A program made the position numbers and the translations under genes. A model generated the notes under the pieces. That model ran no database searches, was not told where the DNA came from, and saw only the letters and a list, made by a program, of their open reading frames with translations. From an uncultured Clostridia bacterium (GTDB lineage: Bacteria > Bacillota > Clostridia > Christensenellales > UBA1242), in the NCBI GenBank assembly GCA_947630745.1, contig CANRIT010000003.1, positions 55,503 to 119,502 on the forward strand: a stretch of DNA of 64,000 bases. Direction: 5' to 3'. This document shows, one piece after another, positions 12,026-44,412 of this stretch. Each line of letters starts with the position of its first letter. The first letter of the stretch is position 1.

Positions 12026-12165
12026 TATCCATAAAGAGTGTGCGAGGGACAGCCCCGTTGACCACACAGCAACCTGCTTTAAGCAAGGTGCTAATGGCTG
12101 ACCGATGGGTTTAATTTGATTTTTGCGCTCATCGGTAACGATGGGTTTTTTCATCTCTTTATGGT
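12026..12165 (+). promoter_or_regulatory. SAM-I (S-box) riboswitch leader of metK
   Basis: P1 CCATAAAGAG (12029-12038) pairs with CTCTTTATGG (12155-12164). Conserved core GAGGGA..GCCCC..GCAACC..AAGGTGCTAA present. Extended -10 TGTTATAAT at 12012-12020. Sits upstream of metK. Confidence 0.8.
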
Positions 12166-12181: not shown

Positions 12182-13276
12182 ATGATAAAATTTATCACCA
12201 GCGAATCGGTGAACATTGGACATCCGGACAAAACATGCGACACAATTGCGGATGCGTTTTTAGATGAGGCGCTTAGGCAGGATAAAAACAGCCAAATGGC
12301 GGTTGAATGCGCAATTAAAAACAACAAATTATTCATCTATGGCGAGGCGACAACAAAGGCAAAAATTAACTACAATAAAATTGCGCGGCAGGTTTTAAGC
12401 GAGATTGGGTACAAAAATCATTTTAAAATTATTAAAGAGATTTCACACCAAAGCCCGGATATAAATCAAGCCGTGGTAAAAAACAAGCTTATGGCAAATG
12501 ACCAAGGGATAATTTATGGTTACGCTTGCAACGAAACGGACGAGTTTATGCCGCTGCCAATTTTGATTGCTCACAAACTTATGAAAAGGTATGACGATTT
12601 TAGGCGCACAACCAGCACATATTTTGCCGATGCAAAAGCGCAAGTTTCGGTTAAGTACGAAGATGATGTGCCGCTTGAAATTACCACAATCTTAATAAGT
12701 GTATCGCATCACAAAAATTTAACTCAGCAGCAGATTGAAAACGAAATCAAATCAAATGTAATCATGCCAGTTTTGCAAAATTTTCCGCGATTTAAATTAG
12801 ACAACACGCGCTTTATAATCAACCCAAGTGGCAAATTTACAATTTGGGGAAGTTTTGGTGACAGTGGCTGTGTTGGCAGAAAAATTGTGGTGGATAGTTA
12901 TGGCGGAATAGGTCGAGTTGGCGGTGGCTGTTTCAGTTCCAAAAACGCAACCAAAGTTGATAGGTCAGCTGCATATTATTGTAGATATGTAGCAAAAAAT
13001 ATTGTGGCACACAATTTATGCGATAGGTGCGAAATTTCAGTTGCATATTCAATAGGTATGGAAAATCCAATTTCAATAAACATAGATTGTTTTAACTCAA
13101 ACAAAATACCCATGGAGGGTATATATAATTTTGTTAATAATAATTTTAATTTCAGCCTTAACAACATTATCGACGAACTAAATCTGTTAAATCCAATCTA
13201 TAAACAGACTGCATGTTATGGTCATTTTGGAAATGCAAGCTACCCATGGGAAAAGATTAAACAATGCAAAATTTAA
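12182..13276 (+). CDS. metK: S-adenosylmethionine synthetase
   Basis: SESVNIGHPDKTCD N-terminus, GDSGCVGRKIVVDSYGG and GGGCFSSKNATKVDRS motifs. 364 aa, slightly short for the family. Confidence 0.9.
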   Translation: MIKFITSESVNIGHPDKTCDTIADAFLDEALRQDKNSQMAVECAIKNNKLFIYGEATTKAKINYNKIARQVLSEIGYKNHFKIIKEISHQSPDINQAVVKNKLMANDQGIIYGYACNETDEFMPLPILIAHKLMKRYDDFRRTTSTYFADAKAQVSVKYEDDVPLEITTILISVSHHKNLTQQQIENEIKSNVIMPVLQNFPRFKLDNTRFIINPSGKFTIWGSFGDSGCVGRKIVVDSYGGIGRVGGGCFSSKNATKVDRSAAYYCRYVAKNIVAHNLCDRCEISVAYSIGMENPISINIDCFNSNKIPMEGIYNFVNNNFNFSLNNIIDELNLLNPIYKQTACYGHFGNASYPWEKIKQCKI

Positions 13277-18391: not shown

Positions 18392-18483
18392 ACAAAACAT
18401 AACATTTATAATAGTGTAGGCTGCTCCCAAAGTCGTTCAAATTCCTAGTTGTTAAATGTCATAGACGTTCACTGATTTTTAAG

Positions 18484-18815
18484 ATGTAATAGTTTGTAAA
18501 CATAAAAATAGCATTTTTATTTATACGGACTTTTGTGTTAAATTTGTAAAATACTATAAAATTATAATCAAATTACGCTGATTTGTTATATATGATAATA
18601 ATGTGATAGTTTGTAAGCATAAAAAAATTGCATTCTATATGTACCCATTTTTGTGTTAAGATTAAATCTGTTTATAAATATAATTAAAATTAACTTTTTT
18701 GATATAGTATAATGTAATAGTTTGTAAATTATAAAAATAGCATTTTTATTTTGTGTGTATTTTTGTGCTAAGTTTAGATTTGTCAAGAATTATATATGAT
18801 TATAATCAAATTGCA
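18484..18815 (+). repeat. Three degenerate tandem repeats of ~111-117 bp
   Basis: Units start at 18484, 18601 and 18712 with the shared core ATGTRATAGTTTGTAARCATAAAAATAGCATTTTTAT..TTTTGTGYTAARTTT. ATTATAATCAAATT recurs at 18561 and 18798. Confidence 0.75.
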
Positions 18816-18863
18816 AAGGATTTCAATTTATAAATAATTTTTTAAAAAAGTTATAAAAAATCA

Positions 18864-18892
18864 TTGACAAATGTAAAAAAAACTGATATCAT
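18864..18892 (+). promoter_or_regulatory. Sigma-A-type promoter of the tRNA-Ala/tRNA-Ile unit
   Basis: TTGACA at 18864-18869, 17-nt spacer, TATCAT at 18887-18892. Confidence 0.5.
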
Positions 18893-18939
18893 AATAAAGC
18901 ATTGACTTTTTGGTTTTTGCAAAATCACCTATAAATAGC

Positions 18940-19016
18940 GGGGGATTAGCTCAGTTGGCTAGAGCACTTGCCTTGCAAGCAAGGGGTCATCGGTTCGAAT
19001 CCGATATTCTCCACCA
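18940..19016 (+). tRNA. tRNA-Ala (anticodon TGC), CCA encoded
   Basis: Manual cloverleaf with acceptor GGGGGAT/ATTCTCC including G3:U70, anticodon loop CTTGCAA, T-loop TTCGAAT. Confidence 0.9.
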
Positions 19017-19124
19017 TTAAATAAGTCGTTATGCGATTTATTTAAACTTCCTTAAAGAAGCTAAGCATTTTGTAAGTCCGCCTCCTTGGGCTTACAAAAC
19101 AGCTGCGGCTGTAAGGTTTTACAA

Positions 19125-19201
19125 TGAGATGTAGCTCAGCAGGTTAGAGCACCACCCTGATAAGGTGGGGGTCGGTGGTTCGAGTCCACTCATCTCAACC
19201 A
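19125..19201 (+). tRNA. tRNA-Ile (anticodon GAT), CCA encoded
   Basis: Manual cloverleaf with acceptor TGAGATG/CATCTCA, anticodon stem CCACC/GGTGG, loop CTGATAA, T-loop TTCGAGT. Confidence 0.88.
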
Positions 19202-19250
19202 GATCGCCACCTTATATGGAACAAAGTGAAATATAAGTGGGGCGAGGTGA

Positions 19251-19265
19251 TGAGTCCACTCATCT
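19251..19265 (+). repeat. Degenerate partial copy of the tRNA-Ile 3' part (copy 1)
   Basis: GAGTCCACTCATCT (19252-19265) is identical to tRNA positions 19182-19195. Upstream, CCACCTTATATGGA...GTGGGGCGAGGTGA mimics the anticodon stem through the T-stem. Confidence 0.7.
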
Positions 19266-19346
19266 AAGTAGGGTAACCTACTTTTTTTAGACCCCCACCT
19301 TATACGGAATATAATGTAGTATAAAGAACAGGGTCGTGAGGTCCAA

Positions 19347-19365
19347 AGTCCACTCATCTCAACCA
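19347..19365 (+). repeat. Partial copy of the tRNA-Ile 3' end (copy 2, 19 nt identical including CCA)
   Basis: AGTCCACTCATCTCAACCA is identical to 19183-19201. It is preceded by GGGTCG and CCACCTTATACGGA, as in copy 1. Confidence 0.8.
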
Positions 19366-19390
19366 AGCGGGCGACACGCCCTCTTTTATC

Positions 19391-19415
19391 AAAACCGCAA
19401 GTGTGCGGTTTTTTC
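19391..19415 (+). terminator. Rho-independent terminator
   Basis: AACCGCA-agtg-TGCGGTT followed by a T-run. A second hairpin GGGCG-aca-CGCCC lies at 19367-19379. Confidence 0.8.
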
Positions 19416-19677
19416 ATTATTGGTCGCTTGCCCGCTTTTAAGAAAGGGGACCGACCTCCCCTTTCTTCCTTTCCTCTTGAATAGGATATAAATTTATATG
19501 TGCATAAGATTGAATGTAAATAAACTGATTCAATAAATTTTAAAATATTTTAAAAATTTTTTAAAAAAACAGTTAAACTTTTGAAATTGTTAAAAATGCG
19601 GAAAGTTTGACAAAATGGCGAAATTTGTTTAAGATTAGGGCGAATATTATCAAATTTTTTAAAAATTACAATTTTAT

Positions 19678-19706
19678 TTGATTTATTTTTGTTTTGGTGG
19701 TATAAT
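19678..19706 (+). promoter_or_regulatory. Promoter placed for leaderless plsY mRNA (TTGATT-17-TGgTATAAT)
   Basis: TTGATT at 19678-83, TGGTATAAT at 19698-19706. ATG 19713 is 6 nt after the -10 box. Confidence 0.6.
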
Positions 19707-31944: not shown

Positions 31945-31971
31945 AGGGGTGTGGGAGAAAAGGAGAAAAAT

Positions 31972-33075
31972 ATGACAAAGGAACAAATACGTTTAAAAGT
32001 TATTGATTATCTAAATGACAATCCAAGTATTTTAAAAGAGTTTGCAACTGTCAGGAGTGCTAGATTAAAATTGGAGGCAGATTTAAATCTGAACTACCCT
32101 TCATATGATGAGGTAACAATACAAAAAGTTATAACTGAGGTAGGAAATTGTAATGTCGAAGCGGTTGCTGATGATTTAATGAAAGGGCTCGCTTTTATGG
32201 GATATGGCGACGAGGACTATCACAAAGAACAATTAGAGGAATGCAAAAATAAAACTGACGAAGATTGCTATATATACTCAGTTTTTGATTGTGAAACCTG
32301 TAAAAAGTTGGGTACTTTTATTTCAACATATAAATCTTATCAAGAAAATATCGCTCTTGGTGGAGAACACAAAGAAAAGGTAGAAAAAATATACAATAGC
32401 GGTCTTGCTAAACGCGAACAGCATATAAAACATGGTAGAGAGATATTTAACGACTTTATAGCAAGATTTCAGGCTGCGTTGGAAAGAGACAAGCAAGATG
32501 ACATGCAGATGGATGAAATTATTCCTAGAAGAATAAATGATATGATCAAAGATGAAAAAACTCACATTGCCATGTTAAATAAAATTGAATATGCGGATGG
32601 CATTGTTGAAAAAGTATTTGATTTATTAGGTCAAAACATTCCTAAAAAGCAAGCACAAAAGATAGATAAAATTATAGAAATGAATGATGCAACCTTGGTT
32701 AATAACGTTTTAGATCGTTTAAAAGAAAATCCTACAAAAAACTTTATTGATTTAGGTAAAGTTTTGCTACAAACACCAGCACAAAATCCTGAAGAACTAA
32801 AATGGATGAAGGCTTTAGATGTTGCAGAAATGGTGACGGGTACAATTTTAACAGCAACTGGAATATTTACAAGTACGTTAACAGGCAATATTTCTTCTTT
32901 ATCTGTTACATTACCAGGTTTTGGTCTTATAGGATTGGGATTTGCTGGAATAAATCGGCATATTAAAAAAGCAAAAATTTGGGCTGAAAGAGATAGATTG
33001 GTTTCTTGTTGTGTTAATGATTTTCTTCATGAGGTTGAAGTTGAAAAAGCGATGCAAGCGGGATTAACAAATTAA
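31972..33075 (+). CDS. Hypothetical protein (367 aa): helical soluble region plus C-terminal Gly/Thr-rich transmembrane hairpin
   Basis: ATG 31972 follows AAAGGAGAAAAA. C-terminal VTGTILTATGIFTSTLTGNISSLSVTLPGFGLIGLGFAGI. AT-rich codon usage (AGA, GGA, TTA) unlike its neighbours. Confidence 0.6.
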   Translation: MTKEQIRLKVIDYLNDNPSILKEFATVRSARLKLEADLNLNYPSYDEVTIQKVITEVGNCNVEAVADDLMKGLAFMGYGDEDYHKEQLEECKNKTDEDCYIYSVFDCETCKKLGTFISTYKSYQENIALGGEHKEKVEKIYNSGLAKREQHIKHGREIFNDFIARFQAALERDKQDDMQMDEIIPRRINDMIKDEKTHIAMLNKIEYADGIVEKVFDLLGQNIPKKQAQKIDKIIEMNDATLVNNVLDRLKENPTKNFIDLGKVLLQTPAQNPEELKWMKALDVAEMVTGTILTATGIFTSTLTGNISSLSVTLPGFGLIGLGFAGINRHIKKAKIWAERDRLVSCCVNDFLHEVEVEKAMQAGLTN

Positions 33076-36893: not shown

Positions 36894-38519
36894 TTACACA
36901 TTCATGCCGTCATCGTGGTGGAAGAAGTTGCGGGTGTTTTCTCTGCGCCTTTCGTGGTTTGAATACATTTTAGGATTGCGTTTGTATTTTAAATCATCAT
37001 CAAACCTTTTTTGCATTGCGGATAGCATTGCAGATTTCCTTTTTTCTTCTTTATCATATTCTTCGCGTTTTGCGTCAACAATGGCTTTAAATTTTTCCCA
37101 TTCCTCATTGTAAATTTTGTCAACTTCTTCTTGCTGCATCCCTTGTTCAATAAGTTCGGAAATATATTCTTTTGCCAACAAATATCTGGTTTCGGCAATC
37201 TGTTTCATTGGCTCGCTGTCTTTAACGAAATTTTTGCATGGGGTTTTTGTAAGTTCTAAGTAAAACTCAGCAAGTTGAACGTTTTGCGAGCTGGTGTCGT
37301 ATTTTGTATTAGTATCGATTTTGTCTAAATTTTCTGCCGGTTTCTCTTCATCATTTTTAATATCTTCAGCTGCGTTATTGATTTCATCTAAGTTATTTTT
37401 ATCCGCCTTTGCACCATCATCCACAACTTGTTTGCGTGTTAGTCGCGCATATCTATCGGCGATGTTCTTTTTGAAAGTTTTAAAATCTTCGCTGCACGAT
37501 TTTGCAAACGAAACCATCTTCCAATATCCCTTTTTGTCCGAAGTAAATTTTATGTAGTCGGCTAGGGTGGTCACGCCTTGATTCATCAGATAGTTAAGCA
37601 AAGGTTCAGCCGTGCTAGGAACAAGGTTTTCTATGCTTAAATTGTCTTTTTCCAGCACAGTTTTAACCGCTTTCGTTATCATAAATTCATCTTTCTTGGT
37701 GGTGGCTTTACTAACCAAACCGCCACTATTTTTGTTGGCTTTTGGCTTGGCTTTTGCTTCTTCTGGCAACTTTAACAAGCCGTCTTCTTCCAAATTTTTA
37801 ATATGCGCCATAACATTGTCTAAAAACACGGTGTACGCGTTTTCATAGTTGACTTTGCAGTTGTGGTGAAATTTGTTGAAATACTCTTTGTTTGCCGCAA
37901 ATTTTGCAAAATCGCCAAGCGTTTTAACATTGCGCTTATACAAATAGTTTGCCATCAATGGGCAATCGGTAGGGATAAATTTGTCAATAGGGGTGGTGTC
38001 CAAAGTTAAATACGCTATGTAACTTTTAAATTTTGCAGTGGTAACCTTAATTGGGTCGTCAAACAAATTGTATTTGCTTGCCTCAATGTCGGATTTTGAC
38101 TTTGATTCCCTTTCTTCCTCGCGCAACTCAGTTGCCAATTCTTCTTGCAAATTTTTTAAATCGGACATTATAAAATCGGTAACCTTAAATTTGTCCGCAT
38201 ATAAAGTGTTTGCCGCAAGTTTAAGATTTTTAACAAGTGTGCCCATTTCTTCCATTCTGGCGGTTTTGGTGCTATCCATAAATGTTGGATTGTATTTAGC
38301 CAGCAACTGCCTTATATTATCTTCAAACAGAAAAAACTCTGGACAATCTAAAAACAATTTCCAAACAAAATTAGAAGTGATAGTTTTGCCCAAAATTCTA
38401 CCAACCGTGCGCGCTCTTGCTTCTTCAACTGAGCGGGCTGGTTGCCAAGATGTGTTTTTTATACATTTAATAAGTTCATCAGGTGATTTTTCTGACCTTT
38501 TTTGTCTATTATTACTCAT
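36894..38519 (-). CDS. Hypothetical protein (541 aa) with two internal HhH-like repeats resembling the RNA polymerase alpha C-terminal domain
   Basis: ATG 38519 follows a GGGGG SD. Repeats are CPLMANYLYKRNVKTLGDFAKF and EPLLNYLMNQGVTTLADYIKF. Charged coiled-coil linkers and a basic C-terminus. Confidence 0.65.
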   Translation of the reverse strand: MSNNRQKRSEKSPDELIKCIKNTSWQPARSVEEARARTVGRILGKTITSNFVWKLFLDCPEFFLFEDNIRQLLAKYNPTFMDSTKTARMEEMGTLVKNLKLAANTLYADKFKVTDFIMSDLKNLQEELATELREEERESKSKSDIEASKYNLFDDPIKVTTAKFKSYIAYLTLDTTPIDKFIPTDCPLMANYLYKRNVKTLGDFAKFAANKEYFNKFHHNCKVNYENAYTVFLDNVMAHIKNLEEDGLLKLPEEAKAKPKANKNSGGLVSKATTKKDEFMITKAVKTVLEKDNLSIENLVPSTAEPLLNYLMNQGVTTLADYIKFTSDKKGYWKMVSFAKSCSEDFKTFKKNIADRYARLTRKQVVDDGAKADKNNLDEINNAAEDIKNDEEKPAENLDKIDTNTKYDTSSQNVQLAEFYLELTKTPCKNFVKDSEPMKQIAETRYLLAKEYISELIEQGMQQEEVDKIYNEEWEKFKAIVDAKREEYDKEEKRKSAMLSAMQKRFDDDLKYKRNPKMYSNHERRRENTRNFFHHDDGMNV

Positions 38520-38618: not shown

Positions 38619-38657
38619 TGGAGCTGATGGGCGGACTCGAACCGCCGACCTGCTGAT
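38619..38657 (-). repeat. 39-nt exact copy of the 3' part of tRNA-Thr(CGT), from anticodon stem to CCA
   Basis: TGGAGCTGATGGGCGGACTCGAACCGCCGACCTGCTGAT is identical to 38854-38892. No 5' half is present. Confidence 0.85.
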
Positions 38658-38853
38658 AATGAGCTGAGCAATTAAAACCACTATGGATTTAATTGCCAAG
38701 CGAATTTCATTGTGTAACAATTTAATGTAAAGACAATTAAATGGCATAAAAGGCAATTAAAGACATAAGTGAAGTTTTAAGTTGCGAAGCGAAATTATAT
38801 TGAAACATTGTTTTCAATATTGCGAATCAGATTCGTAAGCAGCAGTATAGAAG

Positions 38854-41931: not shown

Positions 41932-42762
41932 ATGCAAAAGTTGGAGTTTGTTTTAAAAGAAGATAAAAAGTTGGTTAAGGCGATTATTGATGAATTGCCA
42001 TTTCTTTCGCGCTATGATGTAAAAAAGATTTTAGACAACAAGGATGTTAAAGTAAACAATGTTCGCGTTAAGGCGGATTGTGATGTTTTTGCGGGGAATA
42101 AGATTGTGGTTTTTTACACCCCAAAACAAGACAAAGAGTGGTTTATTCCCGTTTATCAAGACGAAAATATCCTTATTGTAAACAAGCGCGCGGGCATTGA
42201 AGTTGTAAGCGAAAACGAACGCGATTTGCTGTCTGTTTTAAAGCAGAATTTTGGCGAAATTTACGCGGTGCACCGCTTGGATAGAAATACGGAAGGGTTA
42301 ACAATTTTTGCACTTAACTTAAAGGCAAAAAGTGTGCTTGATGATGCCTTTAAAAATCGCAAAGAGATAACAAAAAAATACGCGCTTTTGGTCCATGGGC
42401 GGGTTGACATAGCAAAAATTAAGCGCACGGTTTACTTAAAAAAAGTAGAAAATTTGTCAAAAGTTTGGATAAGCGAACTTAAAACCAGCGGCTATGACCC
42501 AATTGTAACCGAATTTACCCCGATTGAATATAGGGGAGAAAACACGCTGCTAGAAGCCAATTTGGTTACTGGCAAAACCCACCAAATCCGCTCCCATATC
42601 GCATATTACGGCCACCCAATAGTAGGCGACAACAAATACGGCAAGGACAACGAAAAAACCCTGCACCTTACCGCCAACTATCTTTCCTTTTCCTTCAAAA
42701 AAGGCAGCCCGCTAAGCTACCTAAACACCAAATCCTTCGAAATCATCCCAAGTTGGCTTTAA
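41932..42762 (+). CDS. RluA-family pseudouridine synthase (RluD-like)
   Basis: S4-like N-terminus, catalytic HRLDRNTEGL, GKTHQIRSH. Confidence 0.85.
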   Translation: MQKLEFVLKEDKKLVKAIIDELPFLSRYDVKKILDNKDVKVNNVRVKADCDVFAGNKIVVFYTPKQDKEWFIPVYQDENILIVNKRAGIEVVSENERDLLSVLKQNFGEIYAVHRLDRNTEGLTIFALNLKAKSVLDDAFKNRKEITKKYALLVHGRVDIAKIKRTVYLKKVENLSKVWISELKTSGYDPIVTEFTPIEYRGENTLLEANLVTGKTHQIRSHIAYYGHPIVGDNKYGKDNEKTLHLTANYLSFSFKKGSPLSYLNTKSFEIIPSWL

Positions 42763-43949
42763 TGCTTTTTAATACATTTTAAAAATTTAAAATTATCAGA
42801 AATATTTGCTAAAAGGTTATCTGTATTTTCAATTTCAAATATTTCTTGGCTTTTTTCTGCATACTGAGTTTGAGATAATATTAGCTCTTGTGATATATTG
42901 TTGTTTTTGTCTAACAGCAAAATACCCGTTCCAATCCAGAAATCTGTGTTGCTTGCTGCAGTAGATTTGAGATGTAGTCCGCCGTCAGTAGGAGATGCAC
43001 AAGGGGATTTTCCCCAAGTCCCAAACAAAGATATTGCATTTGGCCTTTCCCAAAAATTAATTCGCAGTTCATAATCGGCAGCCAAAAAACATTCATTATT
43101 TATTCTTGCTTCAATAATTAATTTGTTAATTTCTTCTTCATTTAAATTTGAATAATCAGTTGTTCCGTTAACTAAAAAGTTGGTTTTTGCTCTTTTAAAC
43201 CAAATTTCTTTTCCTTCGTTTGATAGATTATTATAAGTGGCTTTCATTTCGTCATGATAATCTTTCATGCGGTTGTATAAATCTTGTGGGGTATATAAAT
43301 CTCTTGCAATAATTAAATTATAATCTAATTTTACACCATTTGCTTGGTAAATTTTGTCTGTAAAATATTTTAAAAGTGCCTTAAAAGTTTTGGTGTATCT
43401 ATCAGTTGTTGCTTGTGGCACATTGTTAAATTGTATAGAAATTTCTTCACTTTCGTATTCAAATTTAACACCATATTTGTATTTGGTTATTATTGGCCAT
43501 AAAAATGTGGTCATGTATTTCATGTGAAAAAGTTCAGCCAAATCAACTTCTGGATAGGATGGAGAGTTATAGTTTTTGTAGCCGCCAAAGCCAAAAATAA
43601 AAATGATTGGTTGTTTATTAGTAAAAGAATATATTAACTTATCAATTGTTAGTGAAATGGCCAAATTTGCTTGCTTACTTCCAGAAAATTTTGCAGATAA
43701 TAGGCGCGACAAAAAATCCAACAACAAATTTTTATCATTATTATTTAACTTTGCAAGTTTTGCTCTTTGTTCCAAAACAAAACTTAATTTGTCTTTAACT
43801 TTGTCATCGTCAATTGGCAAATTCATTTCTTTTGCAATCCAATTTATAAAAAGATTCGTATCTTCAGTTGAAAAGCGTAAACATTTTATTAAAGCAGAAT
43901 CGTTTGATTTTGCATTAGATACATCAATTTTAAAATAATTATCAAACAT
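42759..43949 (-). CDS. Hypothetical protein (396 aa), AT-rich orphan next to the tRNA cluster
   Basis: Own promoter (TGTGATATAAT) and AGAGG SD. No family assigned with confidence. 4-nt overlap with the convergent rluD-like gene end. Confidence 0.6.
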   Translation of the reverse strand: MFDNYFKIDVSNAKSNDSALIKCLRFSTEDTNLFINWIAKEMNLPIDDDKVKDKLSFVLEQRAKLAKLNNNDKNLLLDFLSRLLSAKFSGSKQANLAISLTIDKLIYSFTNKQPIIFIFGFGGYKNYNSPSYPEVDLAELFHMKYMTTFLWPIITKYKYGVKFEYESEEISIQFNNVPQATTDRYTKTFKALLKYFTDKIYQANGVKLDYNLIIARDLYTPQDLYNRMKDYHDEMKATYNNLSNEGKEIWFKRAKTNFLVNGTTDYSNLNEEEINKLIIEARINNECFLAADYELRINFWERPNAISLFGTWGKSPCASPTDGGLHLKSTAASNTDFWIGTGILLLDKNNNISQELILSQTQYAEKSQEIFEIENTDNLLANISDNFKFLKCIKKH

Positions 43950-44235: not shown

Positions 44236-44266
44236 TGGTGCCTCGAACCGGAATCGAACCAGTGAC
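44236..44266 (-). repeat. 31-nt exact copy of the 3' end of tRNA-Phe (T-arm, acceptor 3' strand, CCA)
   Basis: TGGTGCCTCGAACCGGAATCGAACCAGTGAC is identical to 44413-44443. It is followed by TTGCAAGAGATTTGCTTGTGT (44267-87). Confidence 0.85.
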
Positions 44267-44351
44267 TTGCAAGAGATTTGCTTGTGTCCCTGTTTCTTTC
44301 AGGTTTTTTTTGGCTTATTTGTTACCCAAACCAATGTGGTTCAAGCAACTA

Positions 44352-44395
44352 TGGTGCCTCAGCGAACCATTAACTTGCAAGAGATTTGCTTGTGT
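44352..44395 (-). repeat. Degenerate second copy of the tRNA-Phe 3' end plus the TTGCAAGAGATTTGCTTGTGT motif
   Basis: TGGTGCCTC (44352-60) followed by AGCGAACC. An exact second copy of the 21-nt motif lies at 44375-95. Confidence 0.7.
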
Positions 44396-44412
44396 AACAT
44401 GGTTCGTGAGAA

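What the first reader, a model, noticed from the sequence alone, without database searches (positions are those of the whole stretch)
19202..19365. Two degenerate partial copies of the tRNA-Ile 3' portion directly downstream of tRNA-Ile(GAT)
After the intact tRNA-Ile (19125-19201), the next 165 nt contain two further copies of its 3' part.
- Copy 1: GAGTCCACTCATCT (19252-65).
- Copy 2: AGTCCACTCATCTCAACCA (19347-65), 19 of 19 nt identical including CCA.

Each is preceded by CCACCTTATA(T/C)GGA... and a GTGGG/GGGTCG segment that mimics the anticodon stem, variable region and T-stem. The 5' acceptor strand and D-arm are missing.

Site-specific integrases that target tRNA genes duplicate exactly this part of the tRNA, from the anticodon loop or T-loop to the 3' end. 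Tandem displaced copies are therefore most simply read as scars of serial integration and excision. No integrase or cargo remains, and the flanking genes downstream are housekeeping.

The same signature recurs at two other tRNA loci in this window (see separate findings). That raises the alternative that these 3' fragments are transcribed and functional.
Basis: partly seen in the sequence, partly recalled or inferred. Interest (0 to 1): 0.55.

Follow-up and report, generated by a model that had tools for sequence, protein, structure and literature searches.

The report
Hairpin-capped tRNA 3'-end copies behind tRNA genes
Two short, partly decayed re-copies of the tail of tRNA-Ile, each led by an inverted snippet of the same tRNA, really do sit directly behind the gene in an uncultured gut Clostridia bacterium; they look like small local fold-back duplications kept in the tRNA's trailer rather than footprints of departed viruses or islands.

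Summary
GAGTCCACTCATCT (19252-65) and AGTCCACTCATCTCAACCA (19347-65) repeat the tRNA-Ile 3' end. None is expected by chance, and two other assemblies carry the identical sequence.

The genome is an uncultured Christensenellales relative ('Ca. Onthoplasma'-like).

Each copy belongs to a module. An arm antisense to tRNA positions 36-49 comes first (19202-15, 12/14; 19290-303, 14/14). A decayed sense copy of positions ~36-58 follows, then a perfect 3' block, then terminators.

tRNA-Thr(CGT) and tRNA-Phe in the window have the same sense-antisense-sense layout.

The serial-integration reading is only partly supported:
- No integrase or cargo is present.
- The intervals are 50-196 nt.
- No matching attP was found in IMG/VR or GenBank phages.
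- The Phe module recurs in a distant relative (L105) with shared derived changes.
- L009 has a 30-nt tandem array of tRNA-Gly ends.

In its favour, all copies are 3' portions, relatives have empty Thr and Phe sites, and a sister species has DNA inserted at the same tRNA-Thr position.

Best reading (about 0.4): small fold-back or template-switch duplications at the tRNA's own stem-loops, later homogenised with the tRNA at their 3' ends and retained as trailer hairpins. Function is untested. The tRNA-Ile locus itself could not be found in relatives.

The parts
18864..18892 (+). Promoter-like site (TTGACA, 17 nt, TG-TATCAT) ahead of the tRNA-Ala/tRNA-Ile pair
   Evidence: Consensus scan, 11 of 12 matches with an extended -10 TG. 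Function is inferred, not shown.
18940..19016 (+). tRNA-Ala(TGC)
   Evidence: ARAGORN; Rfam tRNA 70.3 bits.
19125..19201 (+). Intact tRNA-Ile(GAT) with encoded CCA and a U1-A72 first pair; source of all the copied sequence
   Evidence: ARAGORN; Rfam tRNA 70.5 bits.
19202..19215 (+). Module A antisense arm, GATCGCCACCTTAT, reverse complement of tRNA positions 36-49 (12/14); starts at the first base after the CCA
   Evidence: the repeat finder pair I2; local alignment.
19204..19245 (+). Module A hairpin H1, in which the antisense arm pairs with the module's own sense copy of the anticodon-loop 3' side and stem 3' strand
   Evidence: RNA fold of 19202-19265: -20.8 kcal/mol, z = -3.15.
19233..19265 (+). 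Module A sense copy of tRNA positions 36-71. Positions 36-57 are decayed (15/22). The last 14 nt (19252-19265) are perfect and form the palindrome GATGAGTCCACTCATC (hairpin H2) with 19249-19251
   Evidence: family D2; Fisher p = 0.03 for uneven identity.
19266..19288 (+). Intrinsic-terminator-like hairpin T1 (AAGTAGG-GTAA-CCTACTT plus a T run) between the two modules
   Evidence: Terminator scan.
19290..19303 (+). Module B antisense arm, GACCCCCACCTTAT, perfect reverse complement (14/14) of tRNA positions 36-49
   Evidence: the repeat finder pair I1; 1 of 500 shuffles reached this score.
19323..19365 (+). Module B sense copy of tRNA positions ~36-77. The upstream part is decayed (14/23). The last 19 nt (19347-19365) are perfect, including the discriminator base and CCA
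   Evidence: Fisher p = 0.002.
19369..19418 (+). Two further terminator-like hairpins (T2 at 19369-19381, T3 at 19391-19412) directly after module B
   Evidence: Terminator scan.
19440..19467 (+). Perfect 11-bp hairpin T4. Its right arm (19450-19464) is 80% complementary to tRNA-Ile 19162-19176, so it may be an older relic of the same kind
   Evidence: pairs I3, I7. The relic reading is inference only.
38619..38853 (-). Sister case at tRNA-Thr(CGT). It comprises an antisense arm 38845-38830 (15/16 to tRNA positions 30-45), a short sense piece 38830-38819, an AT-rich spacer with repeats, and a sense copy 38666-38619 whose last 39 nt are perfect
   Evidence: 0 of 500 shuffles reached the antisense score.
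44236..44412 (-). Sister case at tRNA-Phe. Module A (44412-44351) has an antisense arm at 44406-44389, a sense copy with the T-loop deleted, and ends GAGGCACCA. Module B has an antisense arm at 44305-44281 and a sense copy at 44279-44236 whose last 31 nt are perfect

Best explanation
The two fragments are small, locally made re-copies of tRNA-Ile's own 3' portion. They are not leftovers of large integrated elements.

Each module has three parts: an inverted (antisense) piece of the tRNA's anticodon-loop, stem and variable region; a direct copy of positions ~36 to the 3' end; and, counting the gene itself, this gives the order sense - antisense - sense.

That order is the signature of fold-back or template-switch replication errors (inverted triplication, 'tandem inversion duplication', short-range template-switch mutation). 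Here the turn-round point falls at the tRNA's own anticodon stem-loop.

A first module was probably duplicated in tandem to give A and B, which are about 70-78% alike. The arms then decayed or were trimmed, while the 3'-most 14-19 nt were kept or re-made identical to the gene, most simply by short-patch gene conversion with the adjacent tRNA.

The modules lie between the tRNA and a stack of terminators, so they are expected to be transcribed as trailer. There the antisense arm pairs with the module's own sense copy to form a hairpin behind the CCA.

Shown: the anatomy, its statistical significance, its recurrence at three tRNAs in the window, and the conservation of the Phe module.

Inferred: the replication-error origin, the gene conversion, transcription, and any benefit (trailer hairpin, terminator or processing aid).
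For: 1. The antisense arms are real and start 0-10 nt after the CCA at all three window loci. Ile scores 14/14 with 1 of 500 shuffles as good. Thr scores 15/16 with 0 of 500. Phe scores 15 and 13 with 4 of 500.

2. The module sequence is specific to each tRNA. No motif is shared between the Ile, Thr and Phe spacers. This fits copying from the neighbouring gene rather than one mobile-element family.

3. The sense-to-antisense junction is a palindrome centred on the tRNA 3' end in L105 Phe (TTCGAGG-CACCA-CCTGAA) and L009 Gly (GCTC-CAT-GAGCG).

4. No recombinase, transposase or phage protein was found among the ORFs flanking the three loci. No attP-like match was found in IMG/VR or in GenBank phages.

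5. L009 has 4.6 tandem 30-nt units ending in the tRNA-Gly 3' end, a slippage-type product.

6. Phe module B has regained a full T-arm that module A and the L105 module both lack. This shows sequence exchange with the tRNA gene, which would also explain the sharp perfect blocks. The uneven identity of the Ile copies fits the same process: 14/23 against 19/19 (p = 0.002) and 15/22 against 14/14 (p = 0.03).

7. Among the other tRNAs in about 1 Mb of related loci, only L096's upstream 5' fragment of tRNA-Thr and matches to the truncated tRNA-Asp of L097 also passed the same threshold; none had a downstream 3' copy.

8. Template switching is documented to create hairpins and inverted triplications (PMC8794818; PMC4689423).

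9. The Ile locus lies at a synteny breakpoint, where complex repair junctions are expected.
Against: - No ancestral, module-free tRNA-Ile locus could be recovered, so the event itself was not observed.
- The antisense arm covers only 14 nt, so most of a symmetric inverted copy would have had to be deleted afterwards.
- The loops between antisense and sense arms (13-27 nt) are not tRNA-derived.
- The antisense arms of the L105 Phe and L009 Gly units are not individually significant.
- A sharp switch from perfect to partial identity is also exactly what an integrase crossover predicts.
- All six modules are 3' portions. Integration predicts this directly, whereas a replication error needs an extra assumption (5' duplications being harmful).
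- Integrative DNA does use the tRNA-Thr of a sister species at the very position where the window's copy begins.
- Long-term conservation of the Phe module is not explained by a neutral mutational by-product.
Confidence: 0.4

Rival explanations
1. Relic attachment sites. Elements with tRNA-Ile-specific tyrosine integrases integrated one after another (accretion). Each restored the tRNA and displaced the older 3' end. The element bodies were later deleted, leaving only attP-arm stubs plus the displaced cores, an extreme form of the cis-mobilizable element (CIME).
For: - Only 3' fragments occur, in direct orientation, downstream.
- The perfect blocks begin at canonical sublocations: T-loop for Ile, anticodon loop for Thr. 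Islander counts 3760 islands with 3' fragments against 159 with 5' fragments, and lists anticodon-centred and T-stem crossover classes (PMC4383910).
- Identity is two-phase, perfect to the right and partial to the left.
- Empty Thr and Phe sites exist in relatives.
- L096 shows foreign DNA with arm-type-like repeats inserted after position 38 of the same tRNA-Thr.
- The Thr spacer has repeated TTCGCTT(C/G)GCAA and TTAATTGC motifs that resemble protein-binding sites.
- Accretion and CIMEs are described in PMC5704250.
- The Ile locus is at a synteny breakpoint.
Against: - No integrase, cargo or pseudogene remains at any of the three loci.
- Module A begins at the first base after the CCA, so the whole P' arm and body would have had to vanish precisely.
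- Five or six independent elements would all have been cut down to 30-235 bp.
- The same 62-66-nt Phe module, with the same internal deletion, occurs in two lineages whose Cls proteins are about 53% identical.
- Antisense arms are not a feature of att sites.
- No matches in IMG/VR or INPHARED.
- A 30-nt array cannot be an integrase product.
Confidence: 0.3
2. Functional mimics of the tRNA end. The modules are processed out of the tRNA operon transcript as small RNAs, each a hairpin plus the tRNA's acceptor 3' strand and NCCA. They would have a specific job, such as offering RNase P a cleavage site just behind the real tRNA's CCA, or acting as decoys or guides for enzymes that read the acceptor end.
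For: - The Phe module is conserved between deep lineages: 45/58 identical, 8 shared derived characters, and one A-U to G-C double change in the stem. The neighbouring Met-Asp spacer shows no similarity.
- Window Phe module A folds as a 13-bp helix with a free CACCA tail, independently of the cloverleaf (z = -3.6 and -3.25).
- The 3' block is kept perfect in every module.
- The modules lie between a promoter-driven tRNA and terminators.
Against: - There is no comparative or expression evidence for the Ile modules.
- Ile module A lacks the CCA. The module B fold is no better than shuffles (z = -0.83), and module B lies behind a strong terminator.
- The L105 Phe module does not fold better than shuffles (z = -0.27).
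- No Rfam family matches.
- Template switching can itself produce apparent compensatory changes (PMC8794818).
- Modules are absent from L097 and L098, and from Trp, Glu and Thr(TGT) in the window.
Confidence: 0.18
3. Decayed tandem gene copies. tRNA-Ile was once present as two or three tandem genes, and the extra copies lost their 5' halves by deletion.
For: - Module B is 77 nt, the length of the tRNA.
- Weak sense similarity exists to positions 20-41 (score 11).
- Tandem tRNA duplicates occur in the clade: two tRNA-Thr(TGT) genes in L105.
- A small internal deletion in a tRNA gene occurs in L097 (tRNA-Asp).
Against: - No homology to the 5' acceptor strand or D-arm.
- The loop-flanking bases fit the antisense reading (5/7) far better than the sense reading (1/7).
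- Random decay should leave 5' fragments as often as 3' fragments.
- Identity is strongly uneven rather than uniformly eroded.
Confidence: 0.07

Closest known systems
Displaced 3' tRNA-gene fragments at the ends of tRNA-integrated islands and prophages, and their decayed forms (CIMEs, tandem accretion)
   Same: A direct repeat of the tRNA 3' portion lies downstream of an intact tRNA. The start of the perfect block falls in the anticodon loop or the T region. Several copies can lie in series (PMC4383910; PMC5704250).
   Different: Here the intervals are 30-235 nt, with no integrase, cargo or matching attP. An inverted copy of tRNA sequence sits right behind the CCA. One module type is conserved across distant lineages.
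Inverted triplications, tandem inversion duplications and short-range template-switch mutations
   Same: The copy order is sense - antisense - sense. The turn-round points fall at pre-existing short inverted repeats (here the tRNA stem-loops). The arms are later trimmed asymmetrically. New hairpins are created in a single event (PMC4689423; PMC8794818).
   Different: The described cases are kilobase-scale amplifications under selection, or few-base changes inside RNA genes. Recurrent 30-100-nt modules built from the 3' portion of tRNA genes, kept next to the gene, are not described in the papers read here.
tRNA-like 3' processing signals and RNase P minihelix or guide substrates (for example the MALAT1 mascRNA element and external guide sequences); this comparison rests on my own knowledge, not on a tool result
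   Same: A helix followed by a free NCCA tail placed directly after another RNA's 3' end, as in Phe module A.
   Different: No cleavage or expression data exist. The Ile modules are poor minihelices. No 5' acceptor strand is present.
tRNA-dependent lysogeny (Guerrero-Bustamante and Hatfull 2024)
   Same: This applies to L096 only. The host tRNA-Thr is cut in the anticodon loop without being rebuilt, and a second complete tRNA-Thr of the same anticodon lies 54 nt inside the inserted DNA (PMC10865867).
   Different: The contig ends before any integrase or phage gene. The window itself carries an intact tRNA plus a 3' copy, which is a different arrangement.

Membership tests
att-site remnant of a tRNA-integrated element (island, prophage or CIME) | Direct repeat of the tRNA 3' portion, same orientation, downstream of the regenerated gene | tested here: met
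   The 19-mer and the 14-mer are repeated in direct orientation.
att-site remnant of a tRNA-integrated element (island, prophage or CIME) | Repeat boundary at a known crossover sublocation (anticodon loop or T-stem/T-loop region) | tested here: inconclusive
   The perfect Ile blocks start in the T-loop (G57 or A58), while decayed similarity runs back to the anticodon loop. This is compatible with a crossover but also with a gene-conversion tract.
att-site remnant of a tRNA-integrated element (island, prophage or CIME) | Integrase gene or other element genes (or their pseudogenes) between the repeats or next to them | tested here: not met
   The intervals are 50 and 81 nt. The flanking ORFs are SigE, SpoIIGA, SigG, an ABC exporter, a flavodoxin-like protein, PlsY, TatD, SecDF and RecJ. 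No recombinase was found by NCBIfam, Pfam or PHROGs.
att-site remnant of a tRNA-integrated element (island, prophage or CIME) | A matching attP on a phage, plasmid or integrative element | tested here: not met
   No exact match of the tRNA-Ile 3' 19-mer or the 34-mer in IMG/VR. No blastn hit of 19195-19420 in 50,697 phage records. No hit for the module pattern in JGI metagenomes. Coverage of this clade in those collections is thin.
att-site remnant of a tRNA-integrated element (island, prophage or CIME) | Occupied and empty versions of the same site among relatives | tested here: inconclusive
   No relative with tRNA-Ala/tRNA-Ile at either flank was found (80 PlsY loci; ABC-exporter loci). For Thr and Phe, empty sites exist and there is one interrupted Thr site.
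Inverted triplication or template-switch product | Three copies with the middle one inverted | tested here: met
   tRNA positions 36-49 occur as sense, then 19202-15 as antisense, then 19233-46 as sense. The pattern repeats with 19290-303 antisense and 19323-36 sense.
Inverted triplication or template-switch product | Switch points at pre-existing short inverted repeats, with microhomology | tested here: inconclusive
   The turn-round lies at the anticodon stem-loop. An ACC microhomology at the CCA/arm junction is possible but is offset by one base (reading).
Inverted triplication or template-switch product | An ancestral state without the extra copies in close relatives | not testable with these tools
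Known structured RNA family (Rfam) | Match to a curated covariance model | tested here: not met
   Only tRNA matched. All other hits were far below the gathering scores.
Functional tRNA-mimic RNA | Conservation with covariation across species | tested here: inconclusive
   For Ile there are no orthologues. For Phe the modules are 78% identical over 58 nt between lineages with 53% Cls identity. They share 8 derived characters and show one compensatory pair, but the L105 fold is no better than shuffles.
Functional tRNA-mimic RNA | Accumulation as a discrete RNA | not testable with these tools
   No transcriptome data were available.
tRNA pseudogene (decayed full gene copy) | Residual homology along the whole tRNA, including the 5' acceptor strand and D-arm | tested here: not met
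   Sense alignments begin at position 36 (module A) or 45 (module B). Only a weak match, score 11, covers positions 20-41.
Assembly artefact | Structure not reproduced in independent assemblies | tested here: not met
   L001 and L002, from two other samples, are identical over the modules.

The most novel reading that the evidence does not exclude
Christensenellales carry a previously undescribed class of tRNA-linked elements. Each is a co-transcribed, hairpin-capped copy of a tRNA's 3' portion ending in the same acceptor strand and CCA. They would be born by fold-back copying of the gene, kept in step with it by gene conversion, and retained because they act on tRNA metabolism. Candidate roles are a surrogate 'downstream tRNA' that lets RNase P cut right behind the CCA, or a decoy or guide for enzymes and toxins that recognise the acceptor end.
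Probability: 0.18. Interest if true: 0.75.

Novelty: new variant of a known kind. Interest (0 to 1): 0.48.

Why it matters
Partial tRNA genes next to intact ones are routinely read as att-site scars and used to delimit genomic islands. These loci show that the same signature can arise, and persist, without any mobile element, through small inverted-plus-direct re-copying of the gene's own 3' end.

If that is general, three consequences follow:
- Island-finding methods that rely on tRNA fragments will produce false positives.
- It would be a concrete example of new RNA hairpins and terminators being born from tRNA sequence by template switching.
- The conserved Phe module and the strictly preserved acceptor-CCA ends would make a testable case for tRNA-end mimics in bacterial tRNA processing.

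Tried and rejected
- Chance. Rejected: 0.00 matches expected, and the antisense arms beat 496-500 of 500 shuffles.
- Assembly artefact. Rejected: two other assemblies are identical.
- Known RNA family. No Rfam hit.
- attP search. Exact scans of IMG/VR found nothing for the Ile, Thr and Phe 3' ends, the second tRNA-Thr of L096, the conserved Phe motif, or the tRNA-Ile body. blastn of the three spacer regions against 50,697 phage records hit only tRNA-like parts.
- Orthologous tRNA-Ile locus. PlsY-anchored loci in 80 genomes and ABC-exporter-anchored loci contain no tRNA-Ala/tRNA-Ile. The sister MAG has der-plsY and ABC-flavodoxin-CMD instead. The locus is therefore a lineage-specific junction, and comparison was impossible.
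- The metagenome pattern search for the module and the Cls-anchored metagenome scan gave nothing useful.
- Extending the source contig through edge proteins gave only short contigs.
- Retro-copy of a tRNA 3' half with a reverse-transcriptase stop at modified base 37. Rejected because the antisense arms read through the anticodon loop, including position 37.
- Miniature transposon with terminal inverted repeats and a target duplication. Rejected because the 'inverted repeats' are themselves tRNA sequence, and similarity to the tRNA runs through the whole sense arm.
- Simple tandem duplication of [3' end + spacer]. This fits the relation between Ile modules A and B, but not the base structure. 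The sequence after the last copy does not repeat the spacer at Ile or Thr.
- Integron attC, IS200/IS605-type ends and casposon duplications were considered from memory. They were dropped because no defining motif or gene was present.
Full report
**Observation.** The window comes from an uncultured, spore-forming member of the Christensenellales (37% G+C). SigE, SpoIIGA and SigG are present, and the nearest public genomes are 'Candidatus Onthoplasma'-like MAGs from rabbit, chicken and human gut.

tRNA-Ala(TGC) lies at 18940-19016 and tRNA-Ile(GAT) at 19125-19201. They form a free-standing pair behind a good sigma-70-type promoter.

- GAGTCCACTCATCT at 19252-19265 (tRNA positions 58-71).
- AGTCCACTCATCTCAACCA at 19347-19365 (positions 59-77, 19/19, CCA included).

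Neither is expected by chance: 0.00 matches in shuffles. Two other metagenome assemblies are identical through the whole region.

**Anatomy.** Each copy is the end of a longer module.

Module A (19202-19265) begins at the first base after the CCA. Its first part, GATCGCCACCTTAT, is the reverse complement of tRNA positions 36-49 (12/14). A 13-nt loop follows, then a decayed sense copy of positions 36-57 (15/22), then the perfect 14-mer. A canonical terminator follows at 19266-19288.

Module B (19289-19365) repeats the plan:
- GACCCCCACCTTAT is a perfect 14/14 reverse complement of positions 36-49.
- A decayed sense copy follows (14/23).
- The perfect 19-mer comes next.
- Two further terminators and a perfect 11-bp hairpin follow.

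The anticodon stem is itself a palindrome, so the lead-in could be misread as the 5' stem strand. The flanking loop and variable-region bases decide for the antisense reading: 5/7 against 1/7 in the loop, and 5/5 against 3/5 in module B's variable region.

Identity to the tRNA is significantly uneven within each copy (Fisher p = 0.002 and 0.03). Modules A and B are homologous to each other, 78% over the first 36 nt. Module A folds into two hairpins (z = -3.15). Module B folds no better than shuffles.

**The same plan elsewhere.**
- tRNA-Thr(CGT), 38929-38854 on the minus strand, is followed after 8 nt by an arm antisense to positions 30-45 (15/16; 0 of 500 shuffles as good). About 150 nt further on lies a sense copy whose last 39 nt are perfect.
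- tRNA-Phe, 44488-44413 on the minus strand, is followed by two modules, each with an antisense arm. One ends in GAGGCACCA after losing the T-loop. The other ends in a perfect 31-mer.
- In L009, a relative, tRNA-Gly(TCC) runs into 4.6 tandem 30-nt units that each end in CCCGCTCCA.
- Under the same test, the only other hits in about 1 Mb of related DNA were L096's upstream 5' fragment of tRNA-Thr and matches to the truncated tRNA-Asp of L097; no other tRNA had a downstream 3' copy.

**Comparative evidence for Ile.** The Ile locus could not be compared. In 80 PlsY-anchored loci no relative has tRNAs upstream of plsY. The sister MAG has der-plsY on one side and ABC exporter-flavodoxin-CMD on the other. 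The tRNA pair and its modules therefore sit at a lineage-specific synteny junction.

**Comparative evidence for Thr and Phe.** The Cls gene anchors both loci in relatives.
- In the L097-L101 lineage and in L105 (Cls 51-54% identical, three roughly equidistant lineages), tRNA-Thr is followed at once by the next gene or a terminator, so the site is empty.
- In L097 and L098 tRNA-Phe is followed directly by another gene.
- L105 carries a 66-nt module right behind tRNA-Phe that is homologous to the window's module A. The two share 45/58 identical positions, the same loss of the T-loop, the same one-base insertion (AAATCtCTTG) and the same GCT. One stem pair changes from A-T to G-C.
- The nearby Met-Asp spacer shows no similarity, whereas the promoter does.
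- The window's module B shares the CCTGAAA start with L105 but has a full T-arm identical to the gene. This is most simply a conversion tract copied from the tRNA.
- In the sister species (L096, Cls 80%) the window-type tRNA-Thr is cut after position 38. A 54-nt spacer follows, then a second and different complete tRNA-Thr(CGT), a terminator, and direct and inverted ATACACCTAAAT repeats. This arrangement resembles tRNA-dependent lysogeny (PMC10865867).

**Weighing the explanations: integration.** The integration reading explains several things:
- the exclusive 3' polarity of the copies;
- the position of the perfect blocks at sublocations integrases use (PMC4383910);
- the two-phase identity;
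- the patchy distribution among relatives;
- the L096 insertion, which proves that integrative DNA uses this tRNA-Thr.

It does not explain the following:
- the significant antisense arms placed 0-10 nt behind every CCA;
- the tRNA-specific nature of all module sequence;
- the complete lack of recombinase, cargo or pseudogenes;
- intervals of 30-235 nt at five or six separate modules;
- the absence of any attP match;
- the 30-nt array in L009;
- above all, the same 62-66-nt Phe module in two deep lineages.

**Weighing the explanations: template switching.** The order sense (gene) - antisense - sense is what fold-back or template-switch errors produce at short inverted repeats. Such events are known to create hairpins and inverted triplications (PMC8794818; PMC4689423). 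The tRNA's own stem-loops supply the repeats.

In L105 and L009 the first junction is still a palindrome centred on the tRNA 3' end. At the Ile locus most of the inverted arm would have been trimmed.

Gene conversion with the adjacent gene, for which Phe module B is direct evidence, accounts for the sharp perfect blocks.

I therefore rank local template-switch duplication first (0.40), relic att sites second (0.30), a specific RNA function third (0.18) and decayed tandem genes last (0.07). The first and third are not exclusive. A mutational origin leaves room for the Phe module's retention to reflect a use.

**How it would work.** This part is inferred. Transcription from the tRNA-Ala promoter runs through tRNA-Ile into module A. 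There the antisense arm pairs with the module's own sense copy and the 14-mer closes into a second hairpin. Terminator T1 then ends most transcripts. Module B would be reached by read-through, or from a weak internal promoter-like site (19286-19315).

In the Phe case the module forms a 13-bp helix with a free CACCA tail beside an undisturbed cloverleaf. That is the shape RNase P and CCA-reading enzymes recognise (my own knowledge). This is the basis for the more novel reading, a surrogate downstream 'tRNA' or an acceptor-end decoy, to which I give about 0.18.

**Limits.**
- There are no orthologous Ile loci and no expression data.
- Only three Phe modules are available for comparison.
- The antisense arms of the L105 and L009 units are not individually significant.
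- Apparent compensatory changes can themselves be template-switch products.
- The viral and metagenome collections cover this clade poorly, so the missing attP is weak negative evidence.

**Verdict.** This is a real, reproducible and non-random feature. The 'serial integration scars' interpretation is only partly supported. The best-supported reading is a small inverted-plus-direct re-copy of the tRNA's own 3' portion kept in the trailer. That makes it a new variant of known mutational products, of moderate interest, with a less likely but testable functional reading.

Noticed in passing
L096:1-440 (minus strand): In a sister species the window-type tRNA-Thr(CGT) is truncated after position 38 in the anticodon loop. 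A 54-nt spacer follows, then a different complete tRNA-Thr(CGT) (345-270), a terminator, ATACACCTAAAT twice direct and GTAGGTGTAT twice inverted, and an outward-facing promoter. It looks like the end of an integrated element that replaces the tRNA it destroys (tRNA-dependent lysogeny type). The contig ends before any gene.
   Followed up: partly
L009:3021-3159: A tandem array of 4.6 copies of a 30-nt unit (97% matches) overlaps the 3' end of tRNA-Gly(TCC). Each unit ends in CCCGCTCCA and begins with GAGCGTGAAG, the near-complement of the tRNA's 3' end.
   Followed up: partly
L105:13348-13413: A 66-nt module directly behind tRNA-Phe in a distant relative is homologous to the window's Phe module A, with a shared T-loop deletion and a shared one-base insertion. 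The same contig has two tRNA-Thr(TGT) genes.
   Followed up: partly
window 18400-19700: The tRNA-Ala/tRNA-Ile pair stands outside any rRNA operon and at a synteny breakpoint. The sister MAG has der directly upstream of plsY, and flavodoxin-CMD downstream of the ABC exporter, with no tRNA at either place.
   Followed up: yes
window 19125-19201: tRNA-Ile(GAT) has a U1-A72 first base pair instead of the usual G1-C72.
   Followed up: no
window 19440-19467: A perfect 11-bp hairpin has a right arm (19450-19464) that is 80% complementary to tRNA-Ile 19162-19176. It may be a third, older relic, or chance.
   Followed up: no
L097:14559-14614 versus L098:8286-8362: Two contigs that encode the identical Cls protein differ by a 24-nt deletion inside tRNA-Asp, between two AGGTC repeats. 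This leaves a truncated tRNA-Asp in L097. It could be strain variation or an assembly error.
   Followed up: partly
window 12026-12147: A SAM-I riboswitch (65.5 bits) lies ahead of the S-adenosylmethionine synthetase gene (12182-13276). This is an ordinary arrangement.
   Followed up: yes
window 38688-38796 (minus strand): The spacer between tRNA-Thr and its 39-nt copy contains direct repeats, AATTTCGCTTCGCAACTTAA and AAATTCGCTTGGCAATTAAA, 89 nt apart. It also has three TTAATTGC motifs and a palindrome, ATATTGAAA...TTTCAATAT. These look like protein-binding sites and remain unexplained.
   Followed up: no
window 31951-33075; 36894-38519; 42759-43949: Three sizeable ORFs (374, 541 and 396 aa) have no Pfam, NCBIfam or PHROG match. 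The first is extra relative to the L097 gene order. The other two lie directly downstream of the Thr copy and of the tRNA cluster.
   Followed up: partly
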